Positions 24 to 57,686 are shown, counted from the stretch's first letter. The stretch: DNA of 64,000 nt from an uncultured Victivallales bacterium (GCA_964609395.1 CAZSRU010000007.1:47-64046), one strand, 5' to 3'. Notes: generated by a model not told the origin, from the sequence alone. A program made the numbers and translations.

Positions 24-1718
24 TCATGTCACCTTCCGCGAGGGACCCGTCACAATTTCCTTCTGGCGTACGCGGCCCTTCTCGCCTTTCTCGACAAAAA
101 CGGGCTTGCCTGTGAAGGGATCGCGCTCCGTCCAGTACGTCAGCGTGGAATAGGTGGAGGGCGTCGGCGTGAAGATCTGCACCTGCTCCGGCGAAACCTC
201 CAGTTCCTGCGCGGCAAAGGTCTTGAGCTTGCGCATGTCGCCATCGGTGCAGCCCGGATGCGCCGCCATCAGGTAATAGGTCAGGAACTGCGGCTTCCCC
301 GCCCGGCGGGTGGACTCGTTGAACGCCTCGCGGAACGCCTTGAGCGAGGCCGGTCCCGGCTTGCCCATCGCCGCCAGCACGCCCGGCTCGGTGTGCTCGG
401 GTGCCAGTTTCATCTGGCCGGAAACGTGATCGCGCACGACGGCGTCAAGATAACGCTTGCCGTTCCTCAGGTCCGCCATCACCAGGTCGTGCCGGACGCC
501 CGAGGCCACGATCACCCGCTTGACCCCCGGCACCTGCTGCAGGGTCTTGAGCAGGTTCAACTGCCGCCCATGGTCGACCGGCAGCTCGCGGCAGATCGCC
601 GGATACAGGCAGCGCTTACCGCGGCAGGCGCCTGACTCCGCCTTGCGCGTGCATTCGATCCCGTACATGTTGGCCGTCGGTCCGCCGACATCCAGGATCG
701 TGCCACGGAAGGCCGGATGCGCCGCCAGCCGGTGCGCCTCGCGCAGGATCGACGCCTCGCTGCGCATGCAGACGCGCCGCCCCTGATGCACGGCGATCGC
801 GCAGAACCCGCATTCGCCGTAGCAGCCGCGATGGGTCGTGATCGAGAAACGGATCGTGTCCAGCGCCCGCACCTCGCCACCGGCGGCATAGTACGGATGC
901 ACGTCGCGTTCGTAATCCAGCTCGTAGACCGCATCCAGCGCCGGTCCATCCAGCGGCAGCGGCGGCGGTTGCTGCACGTAGTAGCGCGTATCCTGGCGTT
1001 GCGCCAGCGGACGCGCCGTGATCGGGTCGTTGTTGGCATAGAAGGCATGGAACATCCGCGTGAACGCCTCCTTGTCAGCGGCGACGTCCTCGTAGGACGG
1101 CATTTCCACCGCCCCCTCGGGCACGGCGGCGGCAATAAAGCCGACACCACGGATCGCGGTCGGATCCCCGCCGTCGCGCAAGGCGCCGGCCAGGGCGACC
1201 ACGCTGGACTCGGCCATGCCGTAGAGCAGGTAGTCGGCCTTGGCATCGAACAGGATCGAGCGGCGGATGCGGTTCGACCAGAAATCGTAATGCGCCACCC
1301 GCCGCAGGCTCGCCTCGATACCGCCGAGCACGATCGGCGCCGTCTGCTTGAAGCAGCGGCGGATCGCGTTGCTGTAGACCGTTACCGCCCGGTCCGGACG
1401 ACGGTTGTTCTCGCCCCCCGGCGTGAAGTCATCCCGGCGGCGCCTGCGCCCGGAGGCCGTGCGGTTGGCGACCATCGAATCCACGCAGCCGCTCGTCACC
1501 CCCCAGAACAGCGCCGGTTCCCCCAGCCGGGTGAAATCGGCATCCGTCTGCGGCTGCGCCAGGATGCCCACGCGGTAGCCCGCCCGTACCAGACACTTGC
1601 CGATCACAGCGACCCCGGCAAACGGCGAATCGATGTAGGTATCCCCCGTCACCAGGATCACATCCAGCCCCGTCCAGCCCCGCCGCGCCACCTCATCCCT
1701 TGTCGTCGGTAAAAACAT
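24..1718 (-). CDS. ygiQ: YgiQ-family (UPF0313) radical SAM protein. ATG at 1718 gives MFLPTT...; the ORF-track start at 1826 is a GTG inside a repeat/hairpin and is probably not used.
   Basis: HRGCYGECGFCAIAVHQG (CxxxCxxC) radical SAM motif. N-terminal FLPTTRDEVARRGWTGLDVILVTGDTYIDSPFAG aligns with E. coli YgiQ [34 protein letters not shown]. Confidence 0.8.
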   Translation of the reverse strand: MFLPTTRDEVARRGWTGLDVILVTGDTYIDSPFAGVAVIGKCLVRAGYRVGILAQPQTDADFTRLGEPALFWGVTSGCVDSMVANRTASGRRRRRDDFTPGGENNRRPDRAVTVYSNAIRRCFKQTAPIVLGGIEASLRRVAHYDFWSNRIRRSILFDAKADYLLYGMAESSVVALAGALRDGGDPTAIRGVGFIAAAVPEGAVEMPSYEDVAADKEAFTRMFHAFYANNDPITARPLAQRQDTRYYVQQPPPLPLDGPALDAVYELDYERDVHPYYAAGGEVRALDTIRFSITTHRGCYGECGFCAIAVHQGRRVCMRSEASILREAHRLAAHPAFRGTILDVGGPTANMYGIECTRKAESGACRGKRCLYPAICRELPVDHGRQLNLLKTLQQVPGVKRVIVASGVRHDLVMADLRNGKRYLDAVVRDHVSGQMKLAPEHTEPGVLAAMGKPGPASLKAFREAFNESTRRAGKPQFLTYYLMAAHPGCTDGDMRKLKTFAAQELEVSPEQVQIFTPTPSTYSTLTYWTERDPFTGKPVFVEKGEKGRVRQKEIVTGPSRKVT

Positions 1719-1784
1719 GCCTTCAGTCAAACGCGTGCCGCCTGCCTTGTCAACCAGGATCGTGCAAACCGCACAATCTGCCGA

Positions 1785-1886
1785 CTGGAGGGCGAGCGTC
1801 CTCGCGAGCCGCGCCCGGCTAACCACCGCGCACCTTTACAACAACCCTTGCTCCGCATGGCTCGCGAGGACGCTCGCCCTCCATGG
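1785..1886. repeat. 24-26 bp inverted repeat (ctggagggcgagcgtcctcgcgagcc / ggctcgcgaggacgctcgccctcc) separated by a ~48 nt loop. It lies between the R-M gene stop and the ygiQ start. A third copy of the 20-bp core is at 28257-28276.
   Basis: Direct reading of both arms. The core gctcgcgaggacgctcgccc recurs at 1862-1880 (forward), 1793-1811 (reverse) and 28257-28276 (forward). Confidence 0.5.
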
Positions 1887-2051
1887 CACAATTACGCACA
1901 CGCAGCGGGTTCGCAGCCCCCGCTGTACTGTCTGGTGACTTTCACGGTACAGCAGGCGCTGCGAGCCTGCTGTTCTGTCATTATGAGAATTGCTGACCTG
2001 CCAATAGGCCACCGCAGCGAAGGATTCGCATGCCATGGCGCAGACACCTGC

Positions 2052-4880
2052 TTAGAGTAGGCTGACGGCATTCAGATTATGCGCGAGCAGCCGTTCGAGG
2101 ATGGCGTCGTCTGGGAGGTCGGCGGGCCAGCCGTAGGCGGCGGCGACGGCGGCGTCGAGGCGGGCATGGCAGTCGGCCAGCCAGGTGGGGCGGGCATTGT
2201 AGAGCTTGGTTAGGGTGCGGGACTTGCGCTCGGCAGCGCTCATGCCTTCCGGGGCCAGCCAGCGGTCGCGCTTGGCAACCAGATCCCGGGCAGCCTCGGC
2301 GATGGCGTCGGTCGCCGGCGGCAAGGGGAACGTCTCGAAACTGGTTGTCGGCGTGTAGCGGGGGCGGTCCTCAAGCCGGGTGCCCATACTCAGCGCCCAA
2401 ACCTCATGAATCCGGGAATGGAGGATACCGAAGAACGCATCATCGTCACGCGCGAAAACCAGCGTTCCTTGGTTACAGAGGACTTCGGCGGATACCCATA
2501 CAAACAGACGATGTTTTGACACGCCGGGTGTGGCGATATAGCGGGAAAGCCCTTGCAGCGCCGAACGCATCTCCGGTCGAGGCCGGGCATATTGCCACCA
2601 CATACCGCGATAGTCGTCGCGTCGTGTTTCCCGGACAGGCAAAACGTTGGCGCGTACATATTCGAACGGCTTCTCGTACTGGGCGGCTTCCTCGATCGGC
2701 ATGAGCGCAAAGTCGATTGTCCATTTGCAGCGTGATCCCTGGCCAATGTCCACGGCGCTGATGACCGGACGTACAACGTCCGAGTTCGGTTTGCCGTTAG
2801 GATTGCCCTTGTCGGCCAGCATCACGGCTGCCGTTTCCGCATCAATGTCGAATGGGGCTTTCGGGGATGGTCCCATAAAACAGATTCCCAAATTACCGGG
2901 AAGCGTCTTTGCCATTGTGATGTCGGCACACGACGTCAGGTTGGGATTGATGGCGGGCACCTCGCGGCCATCCAGGATTCGCGTTGTTTCGGTGCCGTAA
3001 TCGAAGGCAACCATGCTGACCCGGACATTCGCCCCGTCCAGAACCCAGGGCCGGTCGCTCTCCGCCCAGAAGATCCCGCCGCTATCCTGGATGCGTTTAA
3101 GGACTTCGCGGTTTGCCCCACCGCGTATGCCCTGTGTGGCGAGCAGTCCTGCGCGCTTGCATTTGCCGTCGGCGATATGCGCTCGGGCTTTCTCAAACCA
3201 GTAGCAGCAGAGGTCCGCGAAGGCGGGCACGCGCCCGGCATACAGCGAGAATAGGCGTTCAACGTAGTCGCCGCCGAGTTCCTGCCGGATGCGGTTGCCG
3301 CCCAGGAACGGCGGGTTGCCGATGATGAAGTCCACGGCAGGCCATTCCGGTTCAACAGGTTTACGACAGGCCGGTTCAGGAGATTCCGCATTCCGCGTTC
3401 CGCAATCCGCATTCACAACAATCGCGTCCATCAGACGGATATTCTCGGCGAGCGAGCGCAGGACCGGATCCGCCGAGAACCCGAAGCCGTTAGCGCGAAT
3501 CCATTGCAGCCAGCCGATCCAGACGGTCATCTGCGCGAGGTCATGCGCATAGGGATTCAGCTCGATACCGTAAAGCTGCCAGGGGCCTACTAGCGGCAGG
3601 AACGCACCGAGGCCGTTGTCGCTCCCGTATAGGATCACCTCTTTTTCCAGGTCCTTCAGTCGTAGCAAGGCCATGTAGAGGAAATTCCCGGAGCCACAGG
3701 CGGGGTCCAGCACCTTGACATGCTGCAGCCGGTCAAGGAACCGGTGCAGGATACTCGACGCCTCCCCCTGCGCCTTGCGCTTCGCCGCCGGAGTCATCGT
3801 TTTTGATGCTTTACTGTCTGCAGTCTTCAGTCTTCGGTCTTGAGTCTGCCCCAGTTTCTTCCCCGTTGCTAGCAGGTTCTCGATGGTTGTCCTAGTCTCG
3901 TCCCACTCACGGCGCAGGACCGACATCATCACGGCGTCCACGACAAGCTCGATATCGTCGCGGCTGGTGAAATGCGCGCCGAGTTGCGAGCGTTTGGCCG
4001 GGTCCAGTCCGCGCTCGAACAGGGTGCCGAAAATGGATGGATCAACCGCGCTCCAGTCGAGTGCCGCAGCGGTCGCGAACCGCTTGACAGCATCCATCGG
4101 CAGGTCAAGGACGCTGTGATCGTCGAACAGGCTCCCGTTGAAATGCCGGATGGACTCAAGCCCGAAGTCCCCGCCGGTCGCCATGGTCTCGAAAAGCTGT
4201 TCAAGCAGACGGGCAAAACGGGTTCTGTCACCCCCGGACTTTTCCAGGATGCGCGTGAACACGTTGTCCGGCAGCAGTCCGGCATCTTCCGCGAACAGGC
4301 AGAAGACAATCCGGTCGAGGAAATGCGCCACCGCCGCCGGGTCATTCCCTTGCTTGCGCAGCACATCGGCAATCTCCGCAATCTGCCTGGCCGCGTCCTG
4401 CGTGACGGCGGTACTAGTCCGCCCCGGCCGCAACACTTCCGGGTTATGGAATACCGCCCGCATGATCTCGATGTTTCGCGGTTTGGCCAGGGCTTCCAGT
4501 GGTATGTCGTGGGTGACTTCAACGGTGCCGGTGAAGTTGGTATGGATGACGATGCGGTCAAGATCGCAGACCAGCAGCAGGGGCGGATTTTCCAAAGCGC
4601 TGCGGTAGCGTAGAAGCTGGTCGTAGGCGGCGGCCAAGTCCTTGTGCCTGCCCTTGTACTCGATACCGAAAGCACCCCGCTTCCACACGTCCGCGAAACC
4701 GTCACCGCCGCCGTGCTTGGCCGCGCCCTTCTCGAAACAGAACGTTTCGCCGGTGGGATCCGCTGCGGCAGGCGTCGGGTGATCAAATACGCGGCACAGA
4801 TCGAGAAAATGTTCTTGCGCGGCGGAGCGCTCCTTCAGTTCAACCTTGCGCCATTTGGCAATGAATTCATTGATTGTCAT
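2052..4880 (-). CDS. MmeI-like bifunctional type IIL/IIG restriction-modification enzyme (N-terminal nuclease + N6-adenine DNA methyltransferase). Probable start is MTINEF at 4880; the 59-aa N-terminal extension in the ORF track is encoded by a tandem repeat.
   Basis: N-terminus MTINEFIAKWRKVELKERSAAQEHFLDLCRVF...GFADVWKRGAFGIEYKGRH resembles the MmeI family N-terminal endonuclease domain. GNPPFLGG (NPPF/Y motif IV) and a SAM-binding motif (LDPACGSGNFL) are present. Length is about 940 aa. Confidence 0.75.
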   Translation of the reverse strand: MTINEFIAKWRKVELKERSAAQEHFLDLCRVFDHPTPAAADPTGETFCFEKGAAKHGGGDGFADVWKRGAFGIEYKGRHKDLAAAYDQLLRYRSALENPPLLLVCDLDRIVIHTNFTGTVEVTHDIPLEALAKPRNIEIMRAVFHNPEVLRPGRTSTAVTQDAARQIAEIADVLRKQGNDPAAVAHFLDRIVFCLFAEDAGLLPDNVFTRILEKSGGDRTRFARLLEQLFETMATGGDFGLESIRHFNGSLFDDHSVLDLPMDAVKRFATAAALDWSAVDPSIFGTLFERGLDPAKRSQLGAHFTSRDDIELVVDAVMMSVLRREWDETRTTIENLLATGKKLGQTQDRRLKTADSKASKTMTPAAKRKAQGEASSILHRFLDRLQHVKVLDPACGSGNFLYMALLRLKDLEKEVILYGSDNGLGAFLPLVGPWQLYGIELNPYAHDLAQMTVWIGWLQWIRANGFGFSADPVLRSLAENIRLMDAIVVNADCGTRNAESPEPACRKPVEPEWPAVDFIIGNPPFLGGNRIRQELGGDYVERLFSLYAGRVPAFADLCCYWFEKARAHIADGKCKRAGLLATQGIRGGANREVLKRIQDSGGIFWAESDRPWVLDGANVRVSMVAFDYGTETTRILDGREVPAINPNLTSCADITMAKTLPGNLGICFMGPSPKAPFDIDAETAAVMLADKGNPNGKPNSDVVRPVISAVDIGQGSRCKWTIDFALMPIEEAAQYEKPFEYVRANVLPVRETRRDDYRGMWWQYARPRPEMRSALQGLSRYIATPGVSKHRLFVWVSAEVLCNQGTLVFARDDDAFFGILHSRIHEVWALSMGTRLEDRPRYTPTTSFETFPLPPATDAIAEAARDLVAKRDRWLAPEGMSAAERKSRTLTKLYNARPTWLADCHARLDAAVAAAYGWPADLPDDAILERLLAHNLNAVSLL

Positions 4881-4915
4881 TTGCGGGGCACTATAGACGG
4901 GGCAAGCACACAGGT

Positions 4916-4960
4916 CAAGGTTGCTGCAAGGGTTGCTGCAAGGGGTGCTGCAAGGGGTTT
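4916..4960. repeat. Short tandem repeat, about four copies of caagg(g)(t)tgctg. It lies in the spacer between the R-M gene and the nuclease gene.
   Basis: caaggttgctg caagggttgctg caaggggtgctg caaggggtttgcgg read directly. Confidence 0.4.
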
Positions 4961-4975
4961 GCGGCGGAATGTCGC

Positions 4976-5542
4976 CTACTCCTCCGGTTGCTCCTCTTCC
5001 TTTTTGGGATGGTTCTTGATCCACTCCCACGGCGGAATCGAATTTTCGGTTGCCCAAATACCTTTCTTCTGCTCGATTGCCTTCTGGAAGGCGTTCTTCA
5101 ACTTACCGTAAGCCTCTTTTGGCTTTCCCATAGAAACTGCAAATTGTGCACGCGTCTCAACTAACCATGCATGGCCCTCTTCAACCAAGCGAAGATTGAC
5201 ACATGCTTCGTCTGGCCCAACGAACACCCACGCGCCATGTGATCGATCTTGATCAGTGAGTTCAACAATGTTGACACTCTTGCCCTTCACGAGTTTCTCA
5301 AGAAAAGCCTTCGCTTCCTTGCCGCCCGTCTGTTCGACTCCCGGTGCAGCTACCCCGTCTAGTTCCACATTCCCTTCTGATCGAAGCTGAATCCCATGTT
5401 TGAATAACTTGTTGCTTATCACGATGGTATCACCATCAATGACATCGAGTACCGTAGCCTGGTAACTGAGTGTTCTGGTAGCCCAGCATGTATTGACCAT
5501 CAGTAATCCGAAGCCCATGACTTGTAGCACGATACGTTTCAT
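4976..5542 (-). CDS. Secreted thermonuclease (staphylococcal nuclease/SNase-like) with an N-terminal signal peptide.
   Basis: MKRIVLQVMGFGLLMVNTCWA signal peptide. ATVLDVIDGDTIVI and a downstream SNase-like core are present. Strong SD AGGTGGTG lies 5 nt upstream of the ATG. Local GC is visibly lower than the flanks. Confidence 0.8.
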   Translation of the reverse strand: MKRIVLQVMGFGLLMVNTCWATRTLSYQATVLDVIDGDTIVISNKLFKHGIQLRSEGNVELDGVAAPGVEQTGGKEAKAFLEKLVKGKSVNIVELTDQDRSHGAWVFVGPDEACVNLRLVEEGHAWLVETRAQFAVSMGKPKEAYGKLKNAFQKAIEQKKGIWATENSIPPWEWIKNHPKKEEEQPEE

Positions 5543-5557
5543 ATTATCACCACCTTT

Positions 5558-8500
5558 TTACTCTCCAAGCGCATCTGACCACATTGCCCACGGCAAAATA
5601 TCAACCGCGCCGCCAGAACCAGAACCAATGAGGACGATTTTGCCTTCACTGTTCACAAAAAGCAGGACACTCCAGACTTCCTGTGGAGGTGCGTCCGTTG
5701 CCTTCTTCCACTCGTTCGCGTTGTCTTCGTCGCCTGGGTATGACAGTTCTGGAACGGTAGCCGACGTAAACTGCCATCGGATGTTCCTGATAGGGTCTCC
5801 GGGCTTAAGTGTATCCGCTCCACCTCCCGTGTCTTGATATTCAGGATTTTTGGCCTCGCCGCCTTCATAGGTGTGCGAAAGAGCAAACGACACATTCGTT
5901 TGCGCAACTGAAGCATTGAGAAGCGTGACCAAATACCCGGAGGTATTACTCTGATGCTCACCAAGAGTATCTGCATCCTCGCTAACTGCTGTCTCGAGTG
6001 CCGCCTGCTTGCTGACAATACCTGTTGAGAGAGTCGCCACCTCGATTCCCATGTGCCAGTGGTCGTAGTCCCAAGGGTAAGAGCCAACGCTTCGACTACT
6101 GGGAATGTCGAGTTGGAGCAGGTTTGTGTGAGCCGCATGGAAATTGGTATAGGTGATCGAGGAAAGGCCAGAATCAGGGAAACTGTCATTACTCATTTGC
6201 AGCTTCTGATTCCTGCCAGGTCGAGGATCGAGACAGAATACAATAGTATCAATAATAGCTGCCTTGACATCTACATGCAGCCCGCTGTAGTCCGGGTGCA
6301 TCTCAAGATTTCCCACACCCAGACGCTGCAAATCGTTCCAACTGAAATTCTTCACGACGGCAATCTCATCCCGGCAGCCAGAATAAGGATGCTCAATAAT
6401 GATGCGATCGCCCTGTTGAACACTTGATATCGTCAGGATATTGGATGAAATCGACATTTGAGGAACGGCATTCGAACCATCGTTTAGGCGGATGCTGGCG
6501 TTCAGCCACCCGTCGGCAAAGTGTAGCGCCCCAGTAGTACCAACCCATCTGATGTCGGCTTCAGCGGAAGTGCCCCGCCGATACTTGATATTGACATCCG
6601 CACTATCCAATCCAAGCAGTTGTACATCCCAGTCGACGTTTATCTGATCTGGTTCCGGGAAGGTGGCAATCACCCACTTCTTGCCCGGCGTATCATCGTA
6701 GATCGGTAAAATTGGAAGCGCCGGGTAGTATACATTGGTCAGAACAATAACAACATCTACAGCATCAATCTGATAAGCGGCACCGCAAGGCGACGGAGCA
6801 CCTTCCGGGGTGAAGTCACAATAGAGAGAACTCTGCCCTGACGCGATAGCCGTTACCAAGACGTTCGACCCCGTGTCCGAACCGACTATCTGGAGGTAAT
6901 TCGTATCCACTGACCACAGGTATGTTCCCGGCGTATTCATGTTCAGCACCGCCCTGTAGGTGTTGGTCTGGTCCACACCGAGATAGTAGCCCGGATCGTT
7001 GACCGGTTCAATATCGAGTTCCAGCGCTGTGCTGTTCGAGATTTCGGCGGTATCGCTGAGCGTTCCAATCGTGGTCAGGCAATTCGAGGGGGCCACAAAC
7101 GTCACGGTCAGTTCATTATATGAATAGCCACATTGCGGATAGTCAGCCGAAATATACGTTGCGCCATTGGTGGAGCTGGCGGGAGTCGCCGTATAGCCAT
7201 CCGGCACGCTGTAGGTGAAGACGCCATGCAGCCCGTCCGGGACGATGGTGGCGTCCAGATAAAAGTCATCGGGCCACGAAATAGAGATATCAACATCACT
7301 GAGGAAAACCACCGGGAATGCCACAAAGGCAAAGGGGTAGCCGCAAGCGATGCTATGCGGCGTTCCGAAAAGCCCCGCCGGATCGTGGATGACCATGGGA
7401 TTAGGGGCGGGATCGACCGATAACACCAACGCACCGCCGAGATGATCAGTTGCCCCGCTAAACGACATCGTATGCAACACCGCTCTCGGAAGCTGCAGTG
7501 CGAGATCCTTCACGGGGCTTTCGTGAGAGAATGGCACCGTAAGCGGACCGATCTGAAGCGTGGCAATGCCGTTGCCGGTCCCGCTACCGGTCAGTGCCTG
7601 ATACCCAGCCGAAAGCAGAAAGGTAGCGCCACCTGACTCGTGACTGGTCTCTCCGGCGTCGAGCGGGTTGCTGCCGCCGATGATTTCGGTGTAGTCGGAT
7701 ACTGTATCCCAGTCTGAATCCGCAGCCCATGGATCAGTGCCGTAGATCATCTCCTGATAATTCGTCAACCCGTCGTTGTCGCTGTCCTGAGTTTTTATTG
7801 AGGGGTCGAGCGGATCAAGGCCATGCTTGACAGCCCAGCCGTCGGGAATTCCGCAGCCGGACGATTGCCAGTTGAAGGGATCAGTCATGGCATCGGCTTC
7901 GCCCTTGAACGTGCGCTGTCCCCCGTTGTCCGCAAAGGCGATACCGGCGGCGGCAAATGCCAGGTAGCGCGGATCGGAGGCGTCAACCATCAGGTTATGG
8001 CCATCCAGCAGGCCGTCACCATCGCTGCCGGACTTGAGCGGATCAAGCGGGCCGGAAAGGGCGAGCGTGTAGTAATAACTACTCACCGACACCGTGGACA
8101 CGTGGGAAAGCCCGATCGGAACGTCACGCTCACCATACGTATTCCCCCCCCACGCCACAACGCGGCCATCGGCGCGAACGGCTACACTGTGGGTATATCC
8201 ACCATCAATCGCGATGGCGGCAACCACATTCGTAGCTCCTGAGCACTGTCCGTGGTAATTCCACCCCCAAGCGGCGACCGTACCGTCGGAACGCAGCGCG
8301 AGACTATGCCTATCGCCAGAGGCAATAGCGACGGCATTACTGACCGTTGTTGCCCCGCTGACTTGTCCATAGGAATCCGAGCCCCACCCTTGAACGGTAC
8401 CATCGGAAAGAAGGGCGAGGGAATGGCTAGAACCGGCAGCTACGGCAATTGCATTGGATACTGAAGATGCGCCGAAAACTCTCCCATCATAACCATTCCA

Positions 8501-10003
8501 CCCCCATCCAACAACCGTGCCGTCGTCAAGCAAAGCAAGAGCATGATAATCGCCTGCGGCAATCGAAACCGCATTCGTTACACTTGCAGGCACATTGAGT
8601 TGCCCGTAAGAGTTTGTTCCCCACCCAGCAACGGTACCGTCCTCAAGCAAGGCGAGGCTGTAGCGATCTCCAGCCGCCACTTTAACGGCATTGCTAATAC
8701 CGGCCGCCCCCGATACTTCCCCATTCGCGTCATCACCCCATGCGGAGATGGTGCCATCCGCCCGCGCGGCAAGACAATGCCAATGACCAGCGGAAATACT
8801 GACCGCATCGGTCAGGGAGGCGGGAATAGATGCTTGCCCAGTATCATTGACTCCCCAGTGGGAAATCCGGCTCCAGTTCGCTTCCGCACCGTCTAGCAAG
8901 CCGTCGCCGTCGCTGTCATTCTGGTTCGGATCGGTTCCGGCCTGGTATTCCCCGAGGTTGGTCAGCCCGTCGCTGTCGGCATCGCCCAGGGCATCGGCGG
9001 CATTCAAAGGATCAAGGCCGTGCTGGATTTCCCAGCCGTCGGGCATGCCATCGCCGTCGGTGTCGGTGTTGTAGCGGTCCGTCCCGTAAAGGCGGACTTC
9101 CCGCCCGTCATAGAGTTCGTCGCCGTCGCCGTCATAGTGCGTCCAGGCATCGAGAAAGCGTTTTTCGCCATCTCCGGCGGCGGGGGCGGTGAAGGCGAAG
9201 CTGCCCGCCGCGTTGTTGACGTTGGTAGTCAGCAGGATCTGCCACTGCTGCACCATCAGGTCGTCGCAGGAGAAGATATCGAGTCCTTCGGAAGCCAGCG
9301 TTCCTGACGGCCAGCTCAAGCTGACGTCAACCGTGCCGTTGGTTTGCACGGCCAGCGAGTCGAACGCCAATCCGCTGCCAGTGTAACTGAGGGAGCTGAG
9401 TGCCAGCGGGGTGAAGGTCAGCGATTGCGTTGCGGCAACCGATTCGGTCATGACTTTTTTGATCAGCTCGTCCTCCGTGATCAGCCGGAACCGCACCATG
9501 ATGCGGGAAGGATCGTACAGCGCGACCTGCCAGGCTGCCGTTTCGGCATCAAGGGAGGCAAGATCGGGAAACCGCAGCCGGACATACCAGAGCGGATCGT
9601 ACCCCTTGGGAGCCTTGATCTCGGCAATCACATCACCGACGGCATTCAGGACATGTCGCTCGCCGCTGTCGGGTACTTCTAGGACCGTAATCGGATAAAC
9701 CGTGACGCCATTCTCGCTAGATGGAAGCAACCGCCTGACAAAACGCGATGGAAATGCGTCCGGATCAAATGGCAGCAGCCCGCCGTCCTGTAGGTGGATG
9801 AAATCCGGATCGGGCAACACAATCGGCAGGATTGAATACTGCATCGACTCGAACGCGCTGATCAGGTCAGGCACGTTCTCTACCGCCAGCGACATGTAAC
9901 TGGCATAAAGCGCCTTGTCAAACGGGACGGGCTCGGCGGAAAGATGCACGCTGTCAACAGCATACACGGTCAGGTTGGCAACCATCAGGCAAGCGCTCAA
10001 CAT
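5558..10003 (-). CDS. Giant secreted protein (~1480 aa). It has a signal peptide, thrombospondin type-3-like Ca-binding Asp repeats, a ~7-blade RCC1/BLIP-II beta-propeller, more TSP3-like repeats, and an ~800-aa C-terminal region with no motif I recognise. Start chosen at MLSACLMVANLTVYA (10003); the ORF track extends to 10252.
   Basis: RCC1 repeats are read as GHWHCLAARADGTISAWGDDANGEV... x~7 (SLALLxDGTVxGWGxNxYGQ). TSP3-like DTDGDGMPDGWE, DSDGDGLLDG and DSDNDGLTN are present. A hydrophobic N-terminus follows M84 of the track ORF. Lower GC than the genome. Confidence 0.7.
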   Translation of the reverse strand: MLSACLMVANLTVYAVDSVHLSAEPVPFDKALYASYMSLAVENVPDLISAFESMQYSILPIVLPDPDFIHLQDGGLLPFDPDAFPSRFVRRLLPSSENGVTVYPITVLEVPDSGERHVLNAVGDVIAEIKAPKGYDPLWYVRLRFPDLASLDAETAAWQVALYDPSRIMVRFRLITEDELIKKVMTESVAATQSLTFTPLALSSLSYTGSGLAFDSLAVQTNGTVDVSLSWPSGTLASEGLDIFSCDDLMVQQWQILLTTNVNNAAGSFAFTAPAAGDGEKRFLDAWTHYDGDGDELYDGREVRLYGTDRYNTDTDGDGMPDGWEIQHGLDPLNAADALGDADSDGLTNLGEYQAGTDPNQNDSDGDGLLDGAEANWSRISHWGVNDTGQASIPASLTDAVSISAGHWHCLAARADGTISAWGDDANGEVSGAAGISNAVKVAAGDRYSLALLEDGTVAGWGTNSYGQLNVPASVTNAVSIAAGDYHALALLDDGTVVGWGWNGYDGRVFGASSVSNAIAVAAGSSHSLALLSDGTVQGWGSDSYGQVSGATTVSNAVAIASGDRHSLALRSDGTVAAWGWNYHGQCSGATNVVAAIAIDGGYTHSVAVRADGRVVAWGGNTYGERDVPIGLSHVSTVSVSSYYYTLALSGPLDPLKSGSDGDGLLDGHNLMVDASDPRYLAFAAAGIAFADNGGQRTFKGEADAMTDPFNWQSSGCGIPDGWAVKHGLDPLDPSIKTQDSDNDGLTNYQEMIYGTDPWAADSDWDTVSDYTEIIGGSNPLDAGETSHESGGATFLLSAGYQALTGSGTGNGIATLQIGPLTVPFSHESPVKDLALQLPRAVLHTMSFSGATDHLGGALVLSVDPAPNPMVIHDPAGLFGTPHSIACGYPFAFVAFPVVFLSDVDISISWPDDFYLDATIVPDGLHGVFTYSVPDGYTATPASSTNGATYISADYPQCGYSYNELTVTFVAPSNCLTTIGTLSDTAEISNSTALELDIEPVNDPGYYLGVDQTNTYRAVLNMNTPGTYLWSVDTNYLQIVGSDTGSNVLVTAIASGQSSLYCDFTPEGAPSPCGAAYQIDAVDVVIVLTNVYYPALPILPIYDDTPGKKWVIATFPEPDQINVDWDVQLLGLDSADVNIKYRRGTSAEADIRWVGTTGALHFADGWLNASIRLNDGSNAVPQMSISSNILTISSVQQGDRIIIEHPYSGCRDEIAVVKNFSWNDLQRLGVGNLEMHPDYSGLHVDVKAAIIDTIVFCLDPRPGRNQKLQMSNDSFPDSGLSSITYTNFHAAHTNLLQLDIPSSRSVGSYPWDYDHWHMGIEVATLSTGIVSKQAALETAVSEDADTLGEHQSNTSGYLVTLLNASVAQTNVSFALSHTYEGGEAKNPEYQDTGGGADTLKPGDPIRNIRWQFTSATVPELSYPGDEDNANEWKKATDAPPQEVWSVLLFVNSEGKIVLIGSGSGGAVDILPWAMWSDALGE

Positions 10004-10514
10004 AAACGGCTTTGTTTTCAATATAACTCCATAATCTCTGCATGCAGGCTGCGCTTTCAGCCCGCATGACCAATGAGCCCTTAACCCTGCCCTGCAAATG
10101 GAGAGAAGAAAAGGGCGCGAACTACTGTCAAGCCCTGTGGAGGGACCGCGAAGCCCCTTGGAGGAACATGAAACAGGAGCCGCGCCCACGTGGGGCGCGT
10201 TCCCGCCAGTTCGTTCCTCCAATTGAAAATTCGCGGTTTTCCACAGGAACAATACTTGCGCTAACGCAAAATCTATAATGTCGCTTGTTTTTACTGTTCT
10301 ATATGCCTATGAAATTCTCCAATTCATACATCATTCCACCAATCCAACTGTTATCCACAGTAATCATCTACATTCGCGGTGGCAAGAAATTTTTGCCAAG
10401 TGCCTGATTTAAGCTTTCGAGATGCAACGTAATCCCCGAATTGCAGTTTGACCTGCCCGCCGCGCTCCGGCATGATAGGCGTGACCTTATAAACCAGCCG
10501 AGAGGATCACCATC

Positions 10515-11342
10515 ATGGACATGCCGCTCATGGAAACCGCGTTTGCCGCCGTCGCCAAGACGCTTGACATTGAACAGGCCGATACAGCCCTGATCCTCGG
10601 TTCCGGCTGGAGCGAGGCGGCCGACGCCTTCTCCCCCTCGTCCGAAATCCCCTACAGCGCGATTCCCGGTATGGGGACCACCGGCGTCGCCGGCCATGAA
10701 GGCCGCCTGCGCGTCGCCACCATCGGCAACCGCCGCCTGCTCATCTTCCAGGGACGCCACCACTGGTACGAGGGCCAAGGCTGGACGCCCGTCGGCCTGC
10801 CCGTCTTCATCGCCGCCCGCGCCGGCGTGCGAACCCTGTTGCTGACCAATGCCGCTGGCGGCATCAACCCGTCGTTCGCACCCGGCGACCTGATGCTGGT
10901 GACCGACCACATCAACGCCATCGGCACCAATCCCCTCGTCGGACCGCGCGACGCCCGCTGGGGCGAGCGCTTCCCCGACCAGAGCCACCTCTACGATCCG
11001 GGCCTGCTCGATCACCTGCGCCGGTCCGCCCGCGAGACCGGCATTGCCGTGCGCGAGGGCATCTACCTCGCCACCTCCGGCCCCTGCTACGAGACACCGG
11101 CGGAAGTCCGCGTCTTCCGCGGCATGGGGGCCGACGCCGTCGGCATGTCCACCGTGCCCGAAGCCATCCTCGCCGGGGCTGCCGGCATGCGCGTCGGGGC
11201 CATCTCCTGCATCACCAACCCGGCGGCCGGGGTCGATTCCGCCGCCACGCTCGCCCATGCCGACGTGCTCGACGCCGGACGCCGGGCCATGCCCGCCATG
11301 ACCACCCTGCTGCACCACGCGGTAACCCATGCAAACGCCTGA
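10515..11342 (+). CDS. punA: Purine nucleoside phosphorylase (PNP family I, PunA/XapA-like).
   Basis: ILGSGWS...GHEGRLRVATIGNRRLLIFQGRHHWYEGQG matches trimeric PNP motifs. SD gagagga is upstream. Confidence 0.85.
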   Translation: MDMPLMETAFAAVAKTLDIEQADTALILGSGWSEAADAFSPSSEIPYSAIPGMGTTGVAGHEGRLRVATIGNRRLLIFQGRHHWYEGQGWTPVGLPVFIAARAGVRTLLLTNAAGGINPSFAPGDLMLVTDHINAIGTNPLVGPRDARWGERFPDQSHLYDPGLLDHLRRSARETGIAVREGIYLATSGPCYETPAEVRVFRGMGADAVGMSTVPEAILAGAAGMRVGAISCITNPAAGVDSAATLAHADVLDAGRRAMPAMTTLLHHAVTHANA

Positions 11343-32187: not shown

Positions 32188-34230
<2,043 letters not shown>

Positions 34231-34279
34231 TAAATATCCTAGGCATTAACTTTAACGAAATTGGTCGTGATTTCACCGT

Positions 34280-34507
34280 CGCCCTACAATGGTATGGAAA
34301 TCCAATGCAACCGGCAAACGTTTTCTCCTCAATGCATATCCTGCTGGGAGCGGATCTGTCCCGCAATCCCATCCCGCCTTCCACGATGGCGGTTTCGGTT
34401 TCGGCGGGGTTGTCGATGATGCGGTCGATCTGGCGGTCGGAGGCGCTGTTCTGGGGTTCAAGCAGGTCGAGGATGTTCGGGTTCTGCTCCGCCGCTTTCT
34501 TCTTGTT
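34280..34507 (-). pseudogene. GC-rich coding-like remnant (KKKAAEQNPNILDLLEPQNSASDRQIDRIIDNPAETETAIVEGG...) lacking a start codon. It is a probable 3' fragment of a disrupted methyltransferase/R-M-type gene. Its core is ~90% identical to 46440-46516.
   Basis: The open frame begins directly after the exonuclease gene stop. Codon third positions are GC-rich, like the host. Shared core is gtcgaggatgttcggg.t.t.ctccgccgctttcttcttgtt. Confidence 0.35.
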
Positions 34508-35677
34508 TTAAATCATTTCTACCGACATGAAATCACTTACATGACATACCGCGATGCCATAGTCCCTTGCCTTCTCAATCTTGCCCGTGCGTGAATCTTT
34601 CTCACCGCAATTTACAAGTAAGTTTGTTTGCTTCGTAACATTAGCACTTGGCAAATACCCATTTTCAACAGCCCACGGGAACAGTGTTTCATAACGATCT
34701 ACAACAACGTCTTTTACCACCAGTTCATTTGTAAAGCATACGACTTTTAATCCAGGCACGATTTCTTTGATGAGTGTAAAATGCACGGACGTATTGAACC
34801 CGAAAAGGGTTGCAAGCTCCTCTAGGTCGGAAAATTCATCCCACGTGATCTTCCCGTCCTCATAGTAATCGGCGATTAGCCCAAGCATGGCCTTTCGTAG
34901 CTCATTTTGTGCAACTTTCTTGTCAATCTGGATGCTGGCGATCCGATCCATTTCGTTTGCATCAAAAACCCGATCTTCGCAGATTTCTTCTATCAATCGG
35001 TTGAACAAGTCAATGCTCACCTCATCCTTCCTGTCCCCCCATCCGTCGAATGCTTTCAAGCTATGTGTCGTTCTTTGCTTTGCTTTAACAGGGAACATGG
35101 GGTCGTGTTCATTTTGCAAAAAGCCACGATACACATCCATATCATAAATATGGCACGTATGCTTGACTCCCTCTTTCTGCTGAATCATGAAAAGTTCTCG
35201 AACCATGTTAACATCATCCTCAGCCTTATGTTCTTGAGTGATGTCAATGCCCCTTCGCTGCAAAGACTCATACAATCGATTGCCTCCCATGCCAAACCGG
35301 TGTTGCTCTGTCTTGCATGTGCAGATATAGCTCATTGGCTGGGGGTCAATTCCAGCAGCAAGGAATTCTGCGAATAGAAATTTAAGATCAAATTGAACGT
35401 TATGGCCGACAATAATTTTACCGAACATCTGATCGTACACTGTACGAGCAATCTCGGAGAACAACGGTGCACCTGTTATCATGTCGCGATCAATCCCGTT
35501 GATTTCAGTTATCCGTGCAGGTATTGGATGGCCAGGATCTATCAATGTCGTAAAACAACCACCGACTTTGCTGTAAATGCATATTTCCAGAATACCGCAT
35601 CCCCTCTTTGGGGAAAGTCCTGTTGTCTCAAGGTCTAGGAATACCAACTGATTCTCATCATTTTTTAAAAACATCAT
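34508..35677 (-). CDS. DnaQ-like DEDDh 3'-5' exonuclease fused to a C-terminal BRCT-like domain.
   Basis: Exo I FLDLETTGLSP, Exo II HNVQFDLKFL, Exo III H..AEDDV. The C-terminal ~80 aa (GLKVVCFTNELVV...NLLVNCGEKDSRTGKIEKARDYGIAVCHVSDF) has a BRCT-like pattern. The ATGATG start with AGGAG SD lies 20 nt inside the upstream channel gene. Low GC. Confidence 0.75.
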   Translation of the reverse strand: MMFLKNDENQLVFLDLETTGLSPKRGCGILEICIYSKVGGCFTTLIDPGHPIPARITEINGIDRDMITGAPLFSEIARTVYDQMFGKIIVGHNVQFDLKFLFAEFLAAGIDPQPMSYICTCKTEQHRFGMGGNRLYESLQRRGIDITQEHKAEDDVNMVRELFMIQQKEGVKHTCHIYDMDVYRGFLQNEHDPMFPVKAKQRTTHSLKAFDGWGDRKDEVSIDLFNRLIEEICEDRVFDANEMDRIASIQIDKKVAQNELRKAMLGLIADYYEDGKITWDEFSDLEELATLFGFNTSVHFTLIKEIVPGLKVVCFTNELVVKDVVVDRYETLFPWAVENGYLPSANVTKQTNLLVNCGEKDSRTGKIEKARDYGIAVCHVSDFMSVEMI

Positions 35678-36497: not shown

Positions 36498-36509
36498 GTC
36501 CAGATCGGC

Positions 36510-36995
36510 GATACGGGCGGCCCAGGCGTTCATGGCAAGGCATTGCTCGCGGGTGTGCTTGGCGGGGGGGGGGCTTCTTCCGGCGGGCGGCAGGCGAGGA
36601 TGAGGAGTCGGCCTTGCAGGCAGAGGTCGAAGTACTGGCCGCGCGGCTTGAAGCAGGCGTCGAACCCGTCGGGCTTGATGAGTTAATCGGGGTAAGCTTT
36701 CAGTATGGCATGCCACAGGTCATAGACCAGCCAGCCGTCTTCGTTGAGCCGTGCGCGATTGTCGGCGCAATGGGCGAAGAGCGGGCGGCGCTCGTGGGTC
36801 GTCATCGTGATCATGTAGAAGGCGGGGGCTCGGTAGTCCTGGCAGGGGCTGCGGCGGTTCATTCACCCCTCCTTTGGCGGGGCGTGAACGCCCCTTGTGG
36901 GACTGGATACGCGCACACGCAGCAGACATGCGCCATCCGGCACGTGAGCCGTAATACAATCCCGATCCCGTGTTCACACGGGAGCCGCTGCCCGC
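36510..36995 (-). pseudogene. Internally deleted tandem copy of the RAYT-like gene. It retains the 3'-end fragment (36510-36680, ~170 bp, matching 37055-37225) fused to the promoter/5'-end fragment (36690-36990, ~300 bp, matching 37765-38085), and it includes REP-like hairpins.
   Basis: Direct comparison of the two copies. The truncated frame MNRRSPCQDYRAPAFYMITMTTHERRPLFAHCADNRARLNEDGWLVYDLWHAILKAYPD* stops after ~58 codons. Confidence 0.6.
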
Positions 36996-37001
36996 ACACG
37001 C

Positions 37002-57651: not shown

Positions 57652-57658
57652 GCCTGTT

Positions 57659-57686
57659 AAATTACCAAGGTATACAGTATTGTCAA
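57659..57686 (-). promoter_or_regulatory. Sigma-70-like promoter for the AAA ATPase gene: TTGACA - 16 nt - TAATTT (minus strand), with a short leader.
   Basis: Reverse complement of 57652-57690 reads attattgacaatactgtataccttggtaatttaacaggcATG. Confidence 0.45.

What the first reader, a model, noticed from the sequence alone, without database searches (positions are those of the whole stretch)
4900..10450. Lower-GC block encoding a secreted thermonuclease and a giant secreted RCC1-propeller/TSP3 protein, adjacent to an MmeI-like R-M gene.
From roughly 4.9 to 10.4 kb the sequence is clearly AT-richer than the flanks (ygiQ, PNP). The three minus-strand genes run giant protein, then SNase-like nuclease 16 nt later, then the MmeI-like enzyme. 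A secreted DNase next to a huge Ca-binding propeller protein could be a surface/biofilm or predation-related module. The AT-rich 10.0-10.5 kb spacer probably holds its promoter.
Basis: partly seen in the sequence, partly recalled or inferred. Interest (0 to 1): 0.55.

Follow-up and report, generated by a model that had tools for sequence, protein, structure and literature searches.

The report
Exported effector with dead-nuclease partner
An 8.7-kb strain-variable insert in an uncultured bacterium carries an ordinary MmeI-type restriction enzyme and a two-gene operon: a large exported protein ending in an uncharacterised enzyme-like domain, followed by a small exported protein with a nuclease fold that has lost its catalytic residues, so it probably acts as the large protein's binding partner and not as a DNase.

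Summary
The GC dip is real but narrower: 0.49-0.53 at 5.0-7.0 kb and 0.49 at 10.0-10.5 kb, against a window mean of 0.62. The true variable unit is 1762-10438. Relatives with 91-94% identical ygiQ lose homology exactly there, and one carries a Type II R-M system at that site.

The "thermonuclease" has the SNase fold but lacks the catalytic set (R35E, D40A, T41A, E43G, R87H). These positions vary across its family, yet the gene is under purifying selection (dN/dS 0.16-0.28).

The 1487-aa protein is a mosaic: signal peptide, unknown N-domain, TSP3, RCC1 propeller, TSP3, Ig-like domains. It ends in a rare C-terminal domain (53 clusters among 1.84 billion representatives) with no family match, a confident model (pLDDT 92), no structural neighbour, and invariant D/H/H/H/Y/R.

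In 12 of 12 loci with a related C-terminal domain, an SNase-like gene follows within 0-33 nt. More distant members are followed by exported TPR proteins. The last ~190 aa of the large protein plus the first ~130 aa of the partner recombine as one low-GC cassette.

Best reading: an exported effector with a cognate inhibitor- or immunity-like partner, next to an independent MmeI-family gene in an R-M hotspot. Function is inferred, not shown.

The parts
1762..10438 (.). Strain-variable insert (8.7 kb) between ygiQ and the PNP/CCA genes
   Evidence: Homology to relatives (L041 at 89-91% nt; L042, L043 and L046 at 94% nt) stops at window 1761 on the ygiQ side. For L041 it also stops at 10439 on the PNP side. 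L041 holds a 3.5-kb Type II R-M cassette there instead.
5558..10021 (-). Large exported mosaic protein gene (1487 aa from TTG 10021; database gene callers use ATG 9985, 1475 aa, which removes part of the signal peptide)
   Evidence: ORF and start context. Pfam RCC1_2 x6, WD40_RLD and TSP3_bac. Identical gene on three other public contigs.
9137..10021 (-). Signal peptide (aa 1-21) and N-terminal domain of unknown family (aa ~22-295)
   Evidence: No Pfam hit at E<=5. Only 4 homologous clusters in 5.8 billion proteins. Orthologues keep signal peptides. The domain is also encoded upstream of the distant family member in L022.
8873..9136 (-). First block of bacterial TSP3 calcium-binding repeats (aa ~296-383)
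   Evidence: PF18884 hit. NCBIfam CglD/MtsD hits fall in this stretch only.
8129..8824 (-). RCC1-like beta-propeller (aa ~400-631)
   Evidence: PF13540 x6 at 6.6e-55 and PF25390 at 4.6e-38.
6845..8104 (-). Second TSP3 block and middle region (aa ~640-1059), shared with a protein that has a different C-terminus (P0019)
   Evidence: 58-62% identity to P0019/L020 over aa 676-1090. Weak Amuc_1099_fam hit on the TSP3 part.
5561..6844 (-). Conserved C-terminal module (CTD, aa 1060-1487): an Ig-like beta part followed by an alpha/beta core (about 5561-6352) with invariant D146, N166, Q213, S249, D259, H262, H264, H324, Y336 and R353 (numbered within the 428-aa fragment)
   Evidence: 53 clusters in 1.84 billion representatives. 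No Pfam, NCBIfam, PHROG or PDB sequence hit. AF2 pLDDT 91.7 and pTM 0.90. Foldseek PDB and BFVD best E-values 0.02 and 0.18, with the listed PDB hits almost all Ig-type. Motifs shown.
5150..6120 (-). Recombination cassette: last ~190 aa of the large protein plus first ~130 aa of the SNase-like partner. This is also the lowest-GC stretch.
   Evidence: Nucleotide identity to L007 is 0.92-0.97 here against 0.75-0.87 in the flanks. To L005 it is 0.45-0.56 here against 0.77-0.89 in the flanks. dS is 0.12-0.22 here against 0.46-0.91. Amino-acid profiles. Partner identity tracks this part of the CTD.
4976..5542 (-). Exported SNase-fold protein without the catalytic residues (188 aa), translationally coupled to the large gene (15-nt spacer with AAGGTGGTGA)
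   Evidence: PF00565 at 1.1e-9. AF2 pLDDT 78. Foldseek to staphylococcal nuclease at E 3.6e-8 and TM 0.75. R35E, D40A, T41A, E43G and R87H. dN/dS 0.16-0.28.
4890..4956 (-). MmeI gene promoter-like site (TTGACC-17-TATAGT, 4918-4890; ATG about 9 nt after the -10 box) preceded by a 12-nt tandem repeat x3.2 (4919-4956)
   Evidence: Best sigma-70 match in 1700-10600. TRF score 69. Hexamers are conserved in L005 and L007, with repeat copy number 1 and 2 there.
2052..4880 (-). MmeI-family Type IIL/IIG restriction-modification enzyme (942 aa)
   Evidence: Pfam MmeI_N, MmeI_hel, MmeI_Mtase and MmeI_TRD. PADLOC REase_MTase_IIG at 1.3e-265. Aligns to MmeI structure 5HR4 with D-X9-E-X-K, DPACGSGNFL and NPPF conserved.
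10022..10438 (-). AT-richer leader/spacer upstream of the large gene (GC 0.49). It belongs to the variable insert. The promoter is not located.
   Evidence: GC. Homology to L041 ends at 10439. No minus-strand sigma-70 match. A GC-rich hairpin lies at 10199-10181.

Best explanation
Window 1762-10438 is a strain-variable insert in a recombination hotspot between ygiQ and the PNP/CCA genes. It holds two functionally separate units on the minus strand.

Unit 1 (10021 to 4976) is a two-gene operon. The first gene encodes a Sec-exported 1487-aa mosaic protein. Its parts are an unknown N-domain, calcium-binding TSP3 repeats, an RCC1 propeller, more TSP3, Ig-like domains, and a rare uncharacterised C-terminal alpha/beta domain (CTD). 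The invariant Asp, three His, Tyr and Arg residues (plus a nearly invariant Tyr-Glu next to the third His) look like the active site of a metal-dependent hydrolase. The second gene is translationally coupled and encodes an exported 188-aa protein with the staphylococcal-nuclease fold that has lost the catalytic and calcium-binding residues.

I propose the small protein is not a DNase. It is the cognate protein-binding partner of the C-terminal domain. Most likely it is a periplasmic inhibitor or immunity-like protein that keeps the effector domain harmless to the producer, or to kin, until it is exported. Specificity would be set by the C-terminal ~190 aa of the effector and the OB-fold core of the partner, which are exchanged together as one low-GC cassette.

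Unit 2 (4918 to 2052) is a complete, independently promoted MmeI-family Type IIL R-M enzyme. Its adjacency reflects the hotspot's R-M cargo, not a joint mechanism.

Shown: gene content, folds, loss of catalytic residues, conserved pairing, cassette mosaicism, and site variability. Inferred: enzymatic nature of the CTD, physical binding, and the inhibitor/immunity role.
For: Pairing:
- In 12 of 12 independent loci whose CTD is 45-86% identical to this one and that have downstream DNA, the next gene (0-33 nt away) is an exported SNase-like protein.
- It is duplicated in tandem or internally in L025 and L035.
- L024 shows a run of partner-type genes: SNase-like, TPR, HEAT-like, SNase-like.
- CTDs at 31-37% identity (L021, L022, L037, L038) are instead followed by exported TPR proteins; the one at 27% (L039) is followed by an exported protein of unknown family. 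An unrelated fold in the same position fits a binding role, not a catalytic one.

Dead active site:
- R35E, D40A, T41A, E43G and R87H in the window protein. The same columns are variable across 12 partners.
- The SNase fold is retained and dN/dS is 0.16-0.28.

Cassette:
- Window 6120-5150 is 92-97% identical to L007 where the flanks are 75-87%, and 45-56% identical to L005 where the flanks are 77-89%.
- dS is 0.12-0.22 in the cassette against 0.46-0.91 outside.
- Partner identity tracks the C-terminal part of the CTD (r 0.94; partial r 0.80) better than the N-terminal part (0.86; 0.50).
- L020 shows replacement of the CTD by a beta-helix domain plus a different downstream gene, leaving a remnant of the SNase-like gene.

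CTD as an enzyme-like domain:
- Invariant D146, N166, Q213, S249, D259, H262, H264, H324, Y336 and R353 in 31 sequences that are 24-86% identical to this one.
- Confident model.

Hotspot and independence of MmeI:
- for the hotspot.
- Own promoter-like site.
- L004 and the termite-gut loci have the pair without MmeI.
Against: - No toxin, hydrolase or any other family could be assigned to the CTD by sequence or by fold, so enzymatic activity is a guess from conservation.
- No dedicated delivery apparatus or known polymorphic-toxin trafficking or pre-toxin domain is present; there is only a Sec signal peptide.
- The CTD core is conserved across the family, not polymorphic.
- Gene-wide dN/dS is below 1, with no sign of diversifying selection at this resolution.
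- The cassette inference rests on three pairwise comparisons.
- The MmeI gene also follows the pair in a relative whose proteins are only 44-56% identical (L027). A functional tie is therefore not excluded.
- One partner (L023) keeps D21, D40, E43 and R87 with R35K, so some family members may still cut nucleic acid.
- Physical interaction was not modelled or measured.
Confidence: 0.4

Rival explanations
1. The partner is a steric chaperone, foldase or anchor, like the lipase-specific foldase Lif encoded next to secreted lipase LipA. The exported SNase-fold protein helps the C-terminal domain fold, or holds it at the envelope. It neither inhibits it nor confers immunity.
For: The same facts that support a cognate binding partner apply here: invariant adjacency and translational coupling, co-divergence and cassette exchange, and replacement by TPR proteins, a classic chaperone scaffold, in distant members. 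One partner (P0010/L023) carries a C-terminal membrane anchor, as Lif carries an N-terminal one.
Against: Tandem duplicated partners and runs of partner-type genes (L025, L035, L024) are more typical of immunity arrays than of chaperones. So are discrete divergent alleles of the cassette inside otherwise 80-88% identical genes.
Confidence: 0.22
2. One reading: an active secreted thermonuclease works beside a large Ca-binding propeller adhesin in biofilm remodelling, eDNA scavenging or predation.
For: Pfam SNase hit and SNase fold. Signal peptides on both proteins. TSP3 and RCC1 modules are typical of surface proteins, and NCBIfam CglD and MtsD hits fall in the TSP3 part. D19 and D21 are retained, and there is an invariant family-specific Asp at the position of SNase L37.
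Against: R35, D40, T41, E43 and R87 are E, A, A, G and H, and these columns are unconstrained in the family. From established SNase enzymology, loss of any one of R35, E43 or R87 lowers kcat by orders of magnitude. Distant family members use a TPR protein in the same position.
Confidence: 0.1
3. The SNase-fold protein is a non-catalytic nucleic-acid or glycan binder, using OB-fold ligand binding, that works with the large protein, for example by tethering it to extracellular DNA or a polymer matrix.
For: Non-catalytic SN domains that bind ligands are known, as in Tudor-SN, which appears among the structural matches. The gene is under purifying selection.
Against: The SNase nucleotide-contact residues K84, Y85, Y113 and Y115 are deleted or replaced. 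The mature protein is acidic (pI 5.7). Co-exchange with the CTD's C-terminal part and substitution by TPR proteins point to protein-protein recognition.
Confidence: 0.1
4. All three genes form one functional module, with MmeI acting together with the exported pair, for example as a composite defence or conflict island that moves as a unit.
For: The triad recurs in L005, L007 and L027, the last at only 44-56% protein identity. All three lie inside the variable insert.
Against: MmeI-family enzymes are self-sufficient single-chain R-M systems. This one has its own promoter-like site. The pair occurs without MmeI in L004, L025, L032, L033, L034 and L035. PADLOC finds nothing for the large protein and only a weak SNc hit for the partner. 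One set of proteins is extracytoplasmic and the other acts on cytoplasmic DNA.
Confidence: 0.05

Closest known systems
Polymorphic toxin-immunity loci (CdiA-CT/CdiI, Rhs-CT/RhsI and the systems catalogued by Zhang et al. 2012, PMC3482391)
   Same: A large exported multidomain protein whose C-terminal part and the small gene immediately downstream form a lower-GC unit. That unit is exchanged by recombination and occurs as divergent alleles. Downstream partner genes can be duplicated. One relative (L020) shows C-terminus replacement.
   Different: There is no T5SS, T6SS or T7SS, no RHS or filamentous-haemagglutinin repeats, no pre-toxin or releasing-peptidase domain, and no recognised toxin domain. 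The C-terminal domain core is conserved across the family and not hypervariable. The partner is an exported pseudo-nuclease, a fold I did not find among the listed immunity families (no SNase-type immunity family in that paper's text). Toxicity and immunity are untested.
Secreted lipase LipA and its foldase Lif (Pseudomonas/Burkholderia) - from my own knowledge
   Same: A Sec-exported enzyme with a dedicated exported partner encoded directly downstream, in a cognate pairing.
   Different: Unrelated folds. Lif is a helical membrane-anchored protein. No evidence here for a folding requirement.
Staphylococcal nuclease / thermonuclease family (PF00565; S. aureus Nuc, NucI)
   Same: Same fold (Foldseek TM 0.75, E 3.6e-8). 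DGDT motif. A signal peptide, as in secreted bacterial SNases. The C-terminal PPWEW motif is shared with a wider clade of exported bacterial SNase homologues.
   Different: The catalytic and Ca-binding residues R35, D40, T41, E43 and R87 are replaced. The NCBIfam NucI score is 24.8 against a cut-off of 250. It resembles the non-catalytic SN domains of Tudor-SN more than an enzyme.
MmeI (Type IIL restriction-modification; structure 5HR4)
   Same: Same four-domain architecture, D-X9-E-X-K nuclease motif, SAM motif I and NPPF motif IV.
   Different: An ordinary divergent member. The recognition sequence is unknown. It appears to be transcribed from a near-leaderless promoter behind a variable 12-nt repeat.
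TSP3-repeat surface proteins of Myxococcus (CglD, MtsD) and the Amuc_1099 family
   Same: Share bacterial thrombospondin type-3 calcium-binding repeats.
   Different: Similarity is confined to the repeats and scores are far below the family cut-offs (48.6 against 400; 47.5 against 800; 45.8 against 50). No other domain is shared.

Membership tests
Staphylococcal nuclease (thermonuclease, PF00565) | SNase OB-fold | tested here: met
   Pfam 39.1 bits against a cut-off of 21. AF2 model matches S. aureus nuclease structures at E 3.6e-8 and TM 0.75.
Staphylococcal nuclease (thermonuclease, PF00565) | Ca2+ ligands D21, D40 and T41 | tested here: not met
   D21 is kept, but D40 is A and T41 is A. Across 12 partners D21 is D/N/T/K/I and D40 is A/R/D/V.
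Staphylococcal nuclease (thermonuclease, PF00565) | Catalytic residues R35, E43 and R87 | tested here: not met
   They are E, G and H in the window protein, and the columns vary across the family.
Staphylococcal nuclease (thermonuclease, PF00565) | Ca-dependent DNase/RNase activity | not testable with these tools
   Needs an enzyme assay.
MmeI-family Type IIL/IIG R-M enzyme | N-terminal nuclease, helical spacer, gamma-class N6A MTase and TRD in one chain | tested here: met
   PF20464, PF20465, PF20473 and PF20466 are all above their cut-offs. PADLOC REase_MTase_IIG at 1.3e-265 over residues 1-936.
MmeI-family Type IIL/IIG R-M enzyme | PD-(D/E)xK motif D-X9-E-X-K, SAM motif I and NPPF motif IV | tested here: met
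   The alignment to 5HR4 shows gfaDvwkrgafgiEyK, DPACGSGNFL and GNPPF.
MmeI-family Type IIL/IIG R-M enzyme | Cleavage about 20/18 nt from an asymmetric site, with single-strand methylation | not testable with these tools
   Needs biochemistry or a methylome.
RCC1-like beta-propeller | Tandem RCC1 blades | tested here: met
   Six RCC1_2 hits at 6.6e-55. The RCC1-like domain model scores 131.9 bits, below its cut-off of 150.
Polymorphic toxin-immunity system | C-terminal domain varies between otherwise conserved proteins and recombines as a cassette with the downstream gene | tested here: inconclusive
   Cassette mosaicism and one C-terminus replacement (L020) fit. However, the CTD core is conserved in all family members.
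Polymorphic toxin-immunity system | Recognised trafficking, repeat or pre-toxin modules (T5SS/T6SS/T7SS, RHS, FHA, PT-VENN and the like) | tested here: not met
   Pfam and NCBIfam find only RCC1 and TSP3. There is only a Sec signal peptide.
Polymorphic toxin-immunity system | Known toxin domain, with toxicity neutralised by the downstream protein | not testable with these tools
   The CTD matches no known family or structure. Toxicity needs an experiment.
Genomic island / variable hotspot | Deviant composition, and absence from the same site in close relatives | tested here: met
   GC and GC3. L041 carries a different cassette between the same flanks. L042, L043 and L046 differ upstream of ygiQ.
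Genomic island / variable hotspot | Integrase, tRNA target or flanking direct repeats | tested here: not met
   No tRNA or Rfam hit in the window. No transposase homologue in the window. No repeats seen at the break points.

The most novel reading that the evidence does not exclude
The C-terminal domain and its pseudo-nuclease partner define a new class of Sec-exported effector-immunity pair in uncultured bacteria. The effector would be a novel-fold metal-dependent hydrolase. Specificity toward an OB-fold, ex-nuclease immunity protein would be reshuffled by exchange of a ~1-kb cassette. More distant branches use TPR proteins as immunity instead.
Probability: 0.25. Interest if true: 0.65.

Novelty: new variant of a known kind. 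Interest (0 to 1): 0.42.

Why it matters
- It corrects an annotation that would otherwise spread. "Thermonuclease" and "endonuclease YncB" are the names attached to this family, yet the protein is a pseudo-enzyme.
- It defines a rare domain family with no current description. The family has a confident predicted structure, a clear set of candidate catalytic residues, and an obligate neighbour, which makes its function directly testable.
- If the pair proves to be effector and inhibitor/immunity, it would add a nuclease-derived OB fold to the known immunity scaffolds. It would also show cassette exchange in a system that has only a Sec signal.
- If not, it remains an ordinary variable-region cargo of surface-protein and R-M genes.

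Tried and rejected
- **Genome collection scan.** I scanned one genome per GTDB species with the SNase-like profile. It returned only distant SNases (24-38% identity; Nitrospirae, deltaproteobacteria, Bacteroidales and others). None of them sits beside a CTD gene. No close relative is in that collection, and the organism's taxon could not be assigned.
- **Mobile-element origin.** The CTD was absent from the IMG/VR viral scan and from tblastn against plasmid and phage collections. I rejected a known plasmid or phage origin.
- **RNA features.** Rfam and tRNA scans of the whole window found nothing, so this is not a tRNA-linked island.
- **Partners of distant CTD loci.** Profile comparison of the SNase-like family with the genes downstream of distant CTD loci showed no relationship. 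Those genes turned out to be TPR or HEAT-like.
- **CTD annotation.** Pfam, NCBIfam and PHROGs on 31 members, a profile search of PDB sequences, and Foldseek against PDB and BFVD gave nothing beyond Ig-like matches. The model included the Ig-like part, which may have masked weak hits to the alpha/beta core.
- **Defence-system membership.** PADLOC found nothing for the large protein and only a weak SNc+LTD hit (2.6e-4) for the partner.
- **Transposases.** Y1-transposase homologues seen beside related loci have no counterpart in the window.
- **Promoter in the 10.0-10.5 kb spacer.** The simple sigma-70 scan finds no minus-strand site there.
- **Literature.** Searches for an SNase-like immunity protein or a TSP3/RCC1 secreted module found no description.


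Full report
**1. Observation**

The minus strand between ygiQ (24-1826) and a PNP_UDP_1 gene (10515-11342, plus strand) carries three ORFs:
- 5558-10252, the large gene.
- 4976-5542, 188 aa.
- 2052-5057, the MmeI-like gene.

Pfam assigns them as follows:
- The large gene has RCC1_2 x6 (6.6e-55) and TSP3_bac (6.7e-18).
- The 188-aa protein matches SNase (1.1e-9).
- The third ORF has all four MmeI domains.

The real starts are probably further in than the ORF limits.
- For the large gene, TTG 10021 sits 5 nt behind GGAG and gives MKTKPFMLSACLMVANLTVYA|VD, a standard Sec signal peptide. Database gene callers use ATG 9985, which truncates that peptide.
- For MmeI, the start is ATG 4880 (MTINEF...), as called in public records. 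This removes the apparent overlap with the SNase-like gene.

The large gene's stop and the SNase-like ATG are 15 nt apart, with AAGGTGGTGA between them.

The GC dip is real but narrower than stated.
- It is 0.49-0.53 at 5001-7000 and 0.49 at 10001-10500.
- It is 0.56-0.60 at 7000-10000, like the MmeI gene at 0.61.
- The 2-kb window at 5001-7000 lies 2.5 SD below the window mean.
- GC3 is 0.53 for the SNase-like gene and for the last 428 codons of the large gene, against 0.82-0.89 in the housekeeping flanks.

**2. Is it an island?**

The window is part of a 69-kb metagenome contig, and identical copies exist in two other datasets. The YgiQ protein's 90% cluster contains relatives on other contigs.
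- In L041, CCA/PNP and ygiQ are 89-91% identical in nucleotide sequence to the window. Homology stops at window 10439 and 1761. The 3.5 kb in between (GC 0.45-0.54) encodes a Type II methyltransferase, a Type II restriction enzyme and a 421-aa protein.
- In L042, L043 and L046, ygiQ is 94% identical. Homology again stops at 1761, about 40 nt upstream of the ygiQ ATG and just before its TTGACA box. Small unrelated genes follow.

The variable unit is therefore 1762-10438 and includes the MmeI gene. It sits in a hotspot that carries R-M cargo in at least two states. No tRNA, integrase or flanking repeat marks it.

**3. The "thermonuclease"**

The predicted structure (pLDDT 78) matches staphylococcal nuclease (TM 0.75, E 3.6e-8) and also the non-catalytic SN domains of Tudor-SN. 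Three independent alignments with S. aureus nuclease and with canonical bacterial homologues place VELDGVAAPG opposite FRLLLVDTPE and SHGAW opposite GRGLA. This gives R35E, D40A, T41A, E43G and R87H. Only D19 and D21 survive.

Across 12 partner proteins these columns read as follows:
- D21: D/N/T/K/I
- R35: E/I/K/L/R/Q/P
- D40: A/R/D/V
- E43: G/R/N/E/A/K

They are therefore unconstrained. The nucleotide-contact residues K84 and Y85 are deleted.

The gene is still under purifying selection, with dN/dS 0.16-0.28. The protein is thus a conserved pseudo-enzyme. Classical SNase catalysis is very unlikely.

**4. The large protein**

It is a mosaic. In 1487-aa numbering:

| Residues | Module |
|---|---|
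| 1-21 | Signal peptide |
| ~22-295 | N-domain with no family; only 4 homologous clusters |
| 296-383 | TSP3 repeats |
| 400-631 | RCC1 propeller |
| ~640-770 | Second TSP3 block |
| 676-1090 | Middle region, 58-62% identical to P0019, which has a different C-terminus |
| 1060-1487 | C-terminal module (CTD) |

An exhaustive HMMER search found the CTD in only 53 clusters among 1.84 billion representatives. It usually lies at the C-terminus of large proteins. The other modules in those proteins differ: TSP3, glucodextranase-B, PA14, cadherin-like, Big and OmpA.

No Pfam, NCBIfam, PHROG or PDB sequence match exists for the CTD. The AlphaFold model is confident (pLDDT 91.7, pTM 0.90). It shows an Ig-like beta part followed by an alpha/beta core. 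Foldseek finds only weak Ig-type matches in PDB (best E 0.02) and nothing in BFVD.

In 31 sequences 24-86% identical to this one, D146, N166, Q213, S249, G254, D259, H262, H264, H324, Y336 and R353 are invariant. The motifs are VVKNFSWNDLQRLG, IPSARGVGxxPxDxxHxH, HTYE and GDPIRNI. That pattern looks like a metal-dependent active site. This is inference.

**5. Conserved pairing**

I gathered CTD loci from the protein hits and from a metagenome scan. In every locus with a CTD 45-86% identical to this one and with downstream DNA, the next gene encodes a signal-peptide-bearing SNase-like protein. It starts 0-33 nt after the stop. There are 12 such loci: window, L004, L005, L007, L023, L025, L027, L029, L032, L033, L034 and L035.

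Further observations:
- In termite-gut-type contigs the partner is a double SNase-like protein and is duplicated in tandem (L025, L035).
- L024 holds a run of SNase-like, TPR, HEAT-like and SNase-like genes.
- CTDs at 31-37% identity (L021, L022, L037, L038) are followed by exported TPR proteins; the 27% one (L039) by an exported protein of unknown family.

An unrelated fold in the same slot, together with the decayed active site, argues that the partner's job is protein binding.

**6. Cassette**

Against L007, nucleotide identity is 0.75-0.87 along the large gene. It jumps to 0.92-0.97 between about 6120 and 5150. It then falls to 0.73-0.75 over the end of the SNase-like gene and the spacer behind it.

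Against L005, the same segment drops to 0.45-0.56 while the flanks are 0.77-0.89.

Synonymous divergence tells the same story:

| Comparison | Cassette dS | Neighbouring segments dS |
|---|---|---|
| L007 | 0.12-0.22 | 0.46-0.91 |
| L005 | saturated | 0.63-0.81 |

The segment covers the last ~190 aa of the large protein, which hold the His motifs, and the first ~130 aa of the partner, which form the OB core. It coincides with the GC minimum.

Over 66 locus pairs, partner identity follows the C-terminal part of the CTD (r 0.94; partial r 0.80) more closely than the N-terminal part (r 0.86; partial r 0.50). The pairs are not independent, so this is descriptive.

In L020 the CTD has been replaced by a beta-helix domain plus a different downstream gene. 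The first 40 codons of an SNase-like gene are left behind, cut by a Y1-transposase element. In L007 a DDE transposase truncates the large gene.

**7. MmeI**

The enzyme aligns with MmeI (5HR4), with D-X9-E-X-K, DPACGSGNFL and NPPF intact. It scores 1.3e-265 against a Type IIG model.

The best sigma-70-like site in the whole insert is TTGACC-17-TATAGT at 4918-4890, about 9 nt before the ATG. It is conserved in L005 and L007 and lies behind a 12-nt repeat with 3, 2 and 1 copies respectively.

The triad recurs in L005, L007 and L027, the last with MmeI at 56% identity. The exported pair also occurs without MmeI in six loci. I read the R-M gene as an independent neighbour. A tie is not excluded.

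**8. Mechanism proposed**

Both products are exported by Sec. The partner binds the C-terminal subdomain of the effector domain in the periplasm. There it acts as a cognate inhibitor or immunity-like protein. Alleles of the interface are reshuffled as a cassette.

- Shown: folds, loss of catalytic residues, pairing, mosaicism and the hotspot.
- Inferred: catalysis by the CTD, physical binding, and the inhibitory role.

Rival explanations are a foldase-type chaperone, a ligand-binding accessory, an active nuclease, and a three-gene module. They are listed with their tests.

**9. Comparison and verdict**

The closest analogues in how it would work are polymorphic toxin-immunity cassettes and the lipase-foldase pair. 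It is a member of neither. It has no known trafficking or toxin domain, and no activity has been shown.

- The SNase-like protein belongs to the SNase fold family but fails the catalytic criteria.
- The R-M gene is an ordinary MmeI-family member.
- The C-terminal and N-terminal domains belong to undescribed families.

Overall this is a real, moderately interesting feature. Its headline annotation (secreted DNase) is probably wrong. Its more interesting content is a rare domain with an obligate pseudo-nuclease partner exchanged as a cassette.

Noticed in passing
window 4919-4956 and 4890-4918: A 12-nt tandem repeat (CCCTTGCAGCAA, 3.2 copies), each unit containing a TTGCAG -35-like hexamer, lies directly upstream of the MmeI promoter-like site. 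The copy number is 3 here, 2 in L007 and 1 in L005. The ATG is only about 9 nt after the -10 box, suggesting a near-leaderless mRNA and possibly repeat-dependent expression.
   Followed up: partly
window 33500-37000: The strongest GC trough in the window (0.45-0.51) encodes an RNase_T-type exonuclease-domain protein (34508-35677) and an ion-channel protein (35658-36716). It is probably another acquired segment.
   Followed up: partly
window 47043-50183: A second single-chain Type IIG R-M gene (Eco57I/MmeI_Mtase/TaqI_C domains, 1046 aa) lies in a lower-GC stretch (0.55-0.59). An AAA_14/DUF4143 ATPase at 56416-57777 also sits in a GC dip.
   Followed up: partly
window 10181-10199: A perfect GC-rich hairpin (CGCGCCCCACGTGGGCGCG followed by a T-containing tail) lies on the minus strand, inside the long leader upstream of the large gene's start. 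Its role as attenuator, terminator of an upstream transcript or structural element is unknown.
   Followed up: no
L020 7333-8001, 12570-12779, 12841-13866; L004 2460-2825; L021 12021-13040: Y1 (HUH) transposase-like genes sit beside related loci in three separate contigs. In L020 one element interrupts an SNase-like gene after codon ~40, and a second copy directly precedes a large protein that shares the window protein's middle region.
   Followed up: partly
L007 1-1092: A DDE (IS4-type) transposase replaces the 5' two-thirds of the large gene in this 85%-identical relative. What is left is a 759-aa ORF with no signal peptide, so the large gene is probably inactivated there while the partner and MmeI remain.
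   Followed up: partly
L022 149-13989: A distant CTD protein (34% identity) with its TPR partner sits on a 107-kb contig next to a C39-like peptidase, a DNA polymerase III beta clamp, an ATP-dependent DNA ligase, DUF3150 and DUF1257. This context looks like a large phage or plasmid. Its N-domain is split into two short ORFs upstream.
   Followed up: no
L041 4373-5638: The relative's cassette at the same site carries, after the Type II R-M pair, a 421-aa protein with only weak similarity to the prenyltransferase/squalene-hopene cyclase alpha-alpha toroid. Its function is unknown.
   Followed up: no
window 9985-10021: Public gene calls for the large protein start at ATG 9985 (1475 aa), which removes half of the signal peptide. 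TTG 10021 behind GGAG restores a canonical one, so automated localisation predictions on the database entry would be misleading.
   Followed up: yes
L009-L015, L019 (match coordinates): A wider clade of signal-peptide-bearing SNase homologues ends in PPWEWKK. It occurs in Nitrospirae, deltaproteobacterial and Bacteroidales genomes. Several members also have substitutions at D40 or E43 (for example GIACP, GVECP), hinting that loss or change of the canonical site is common in this clade.
   Followed up: partly
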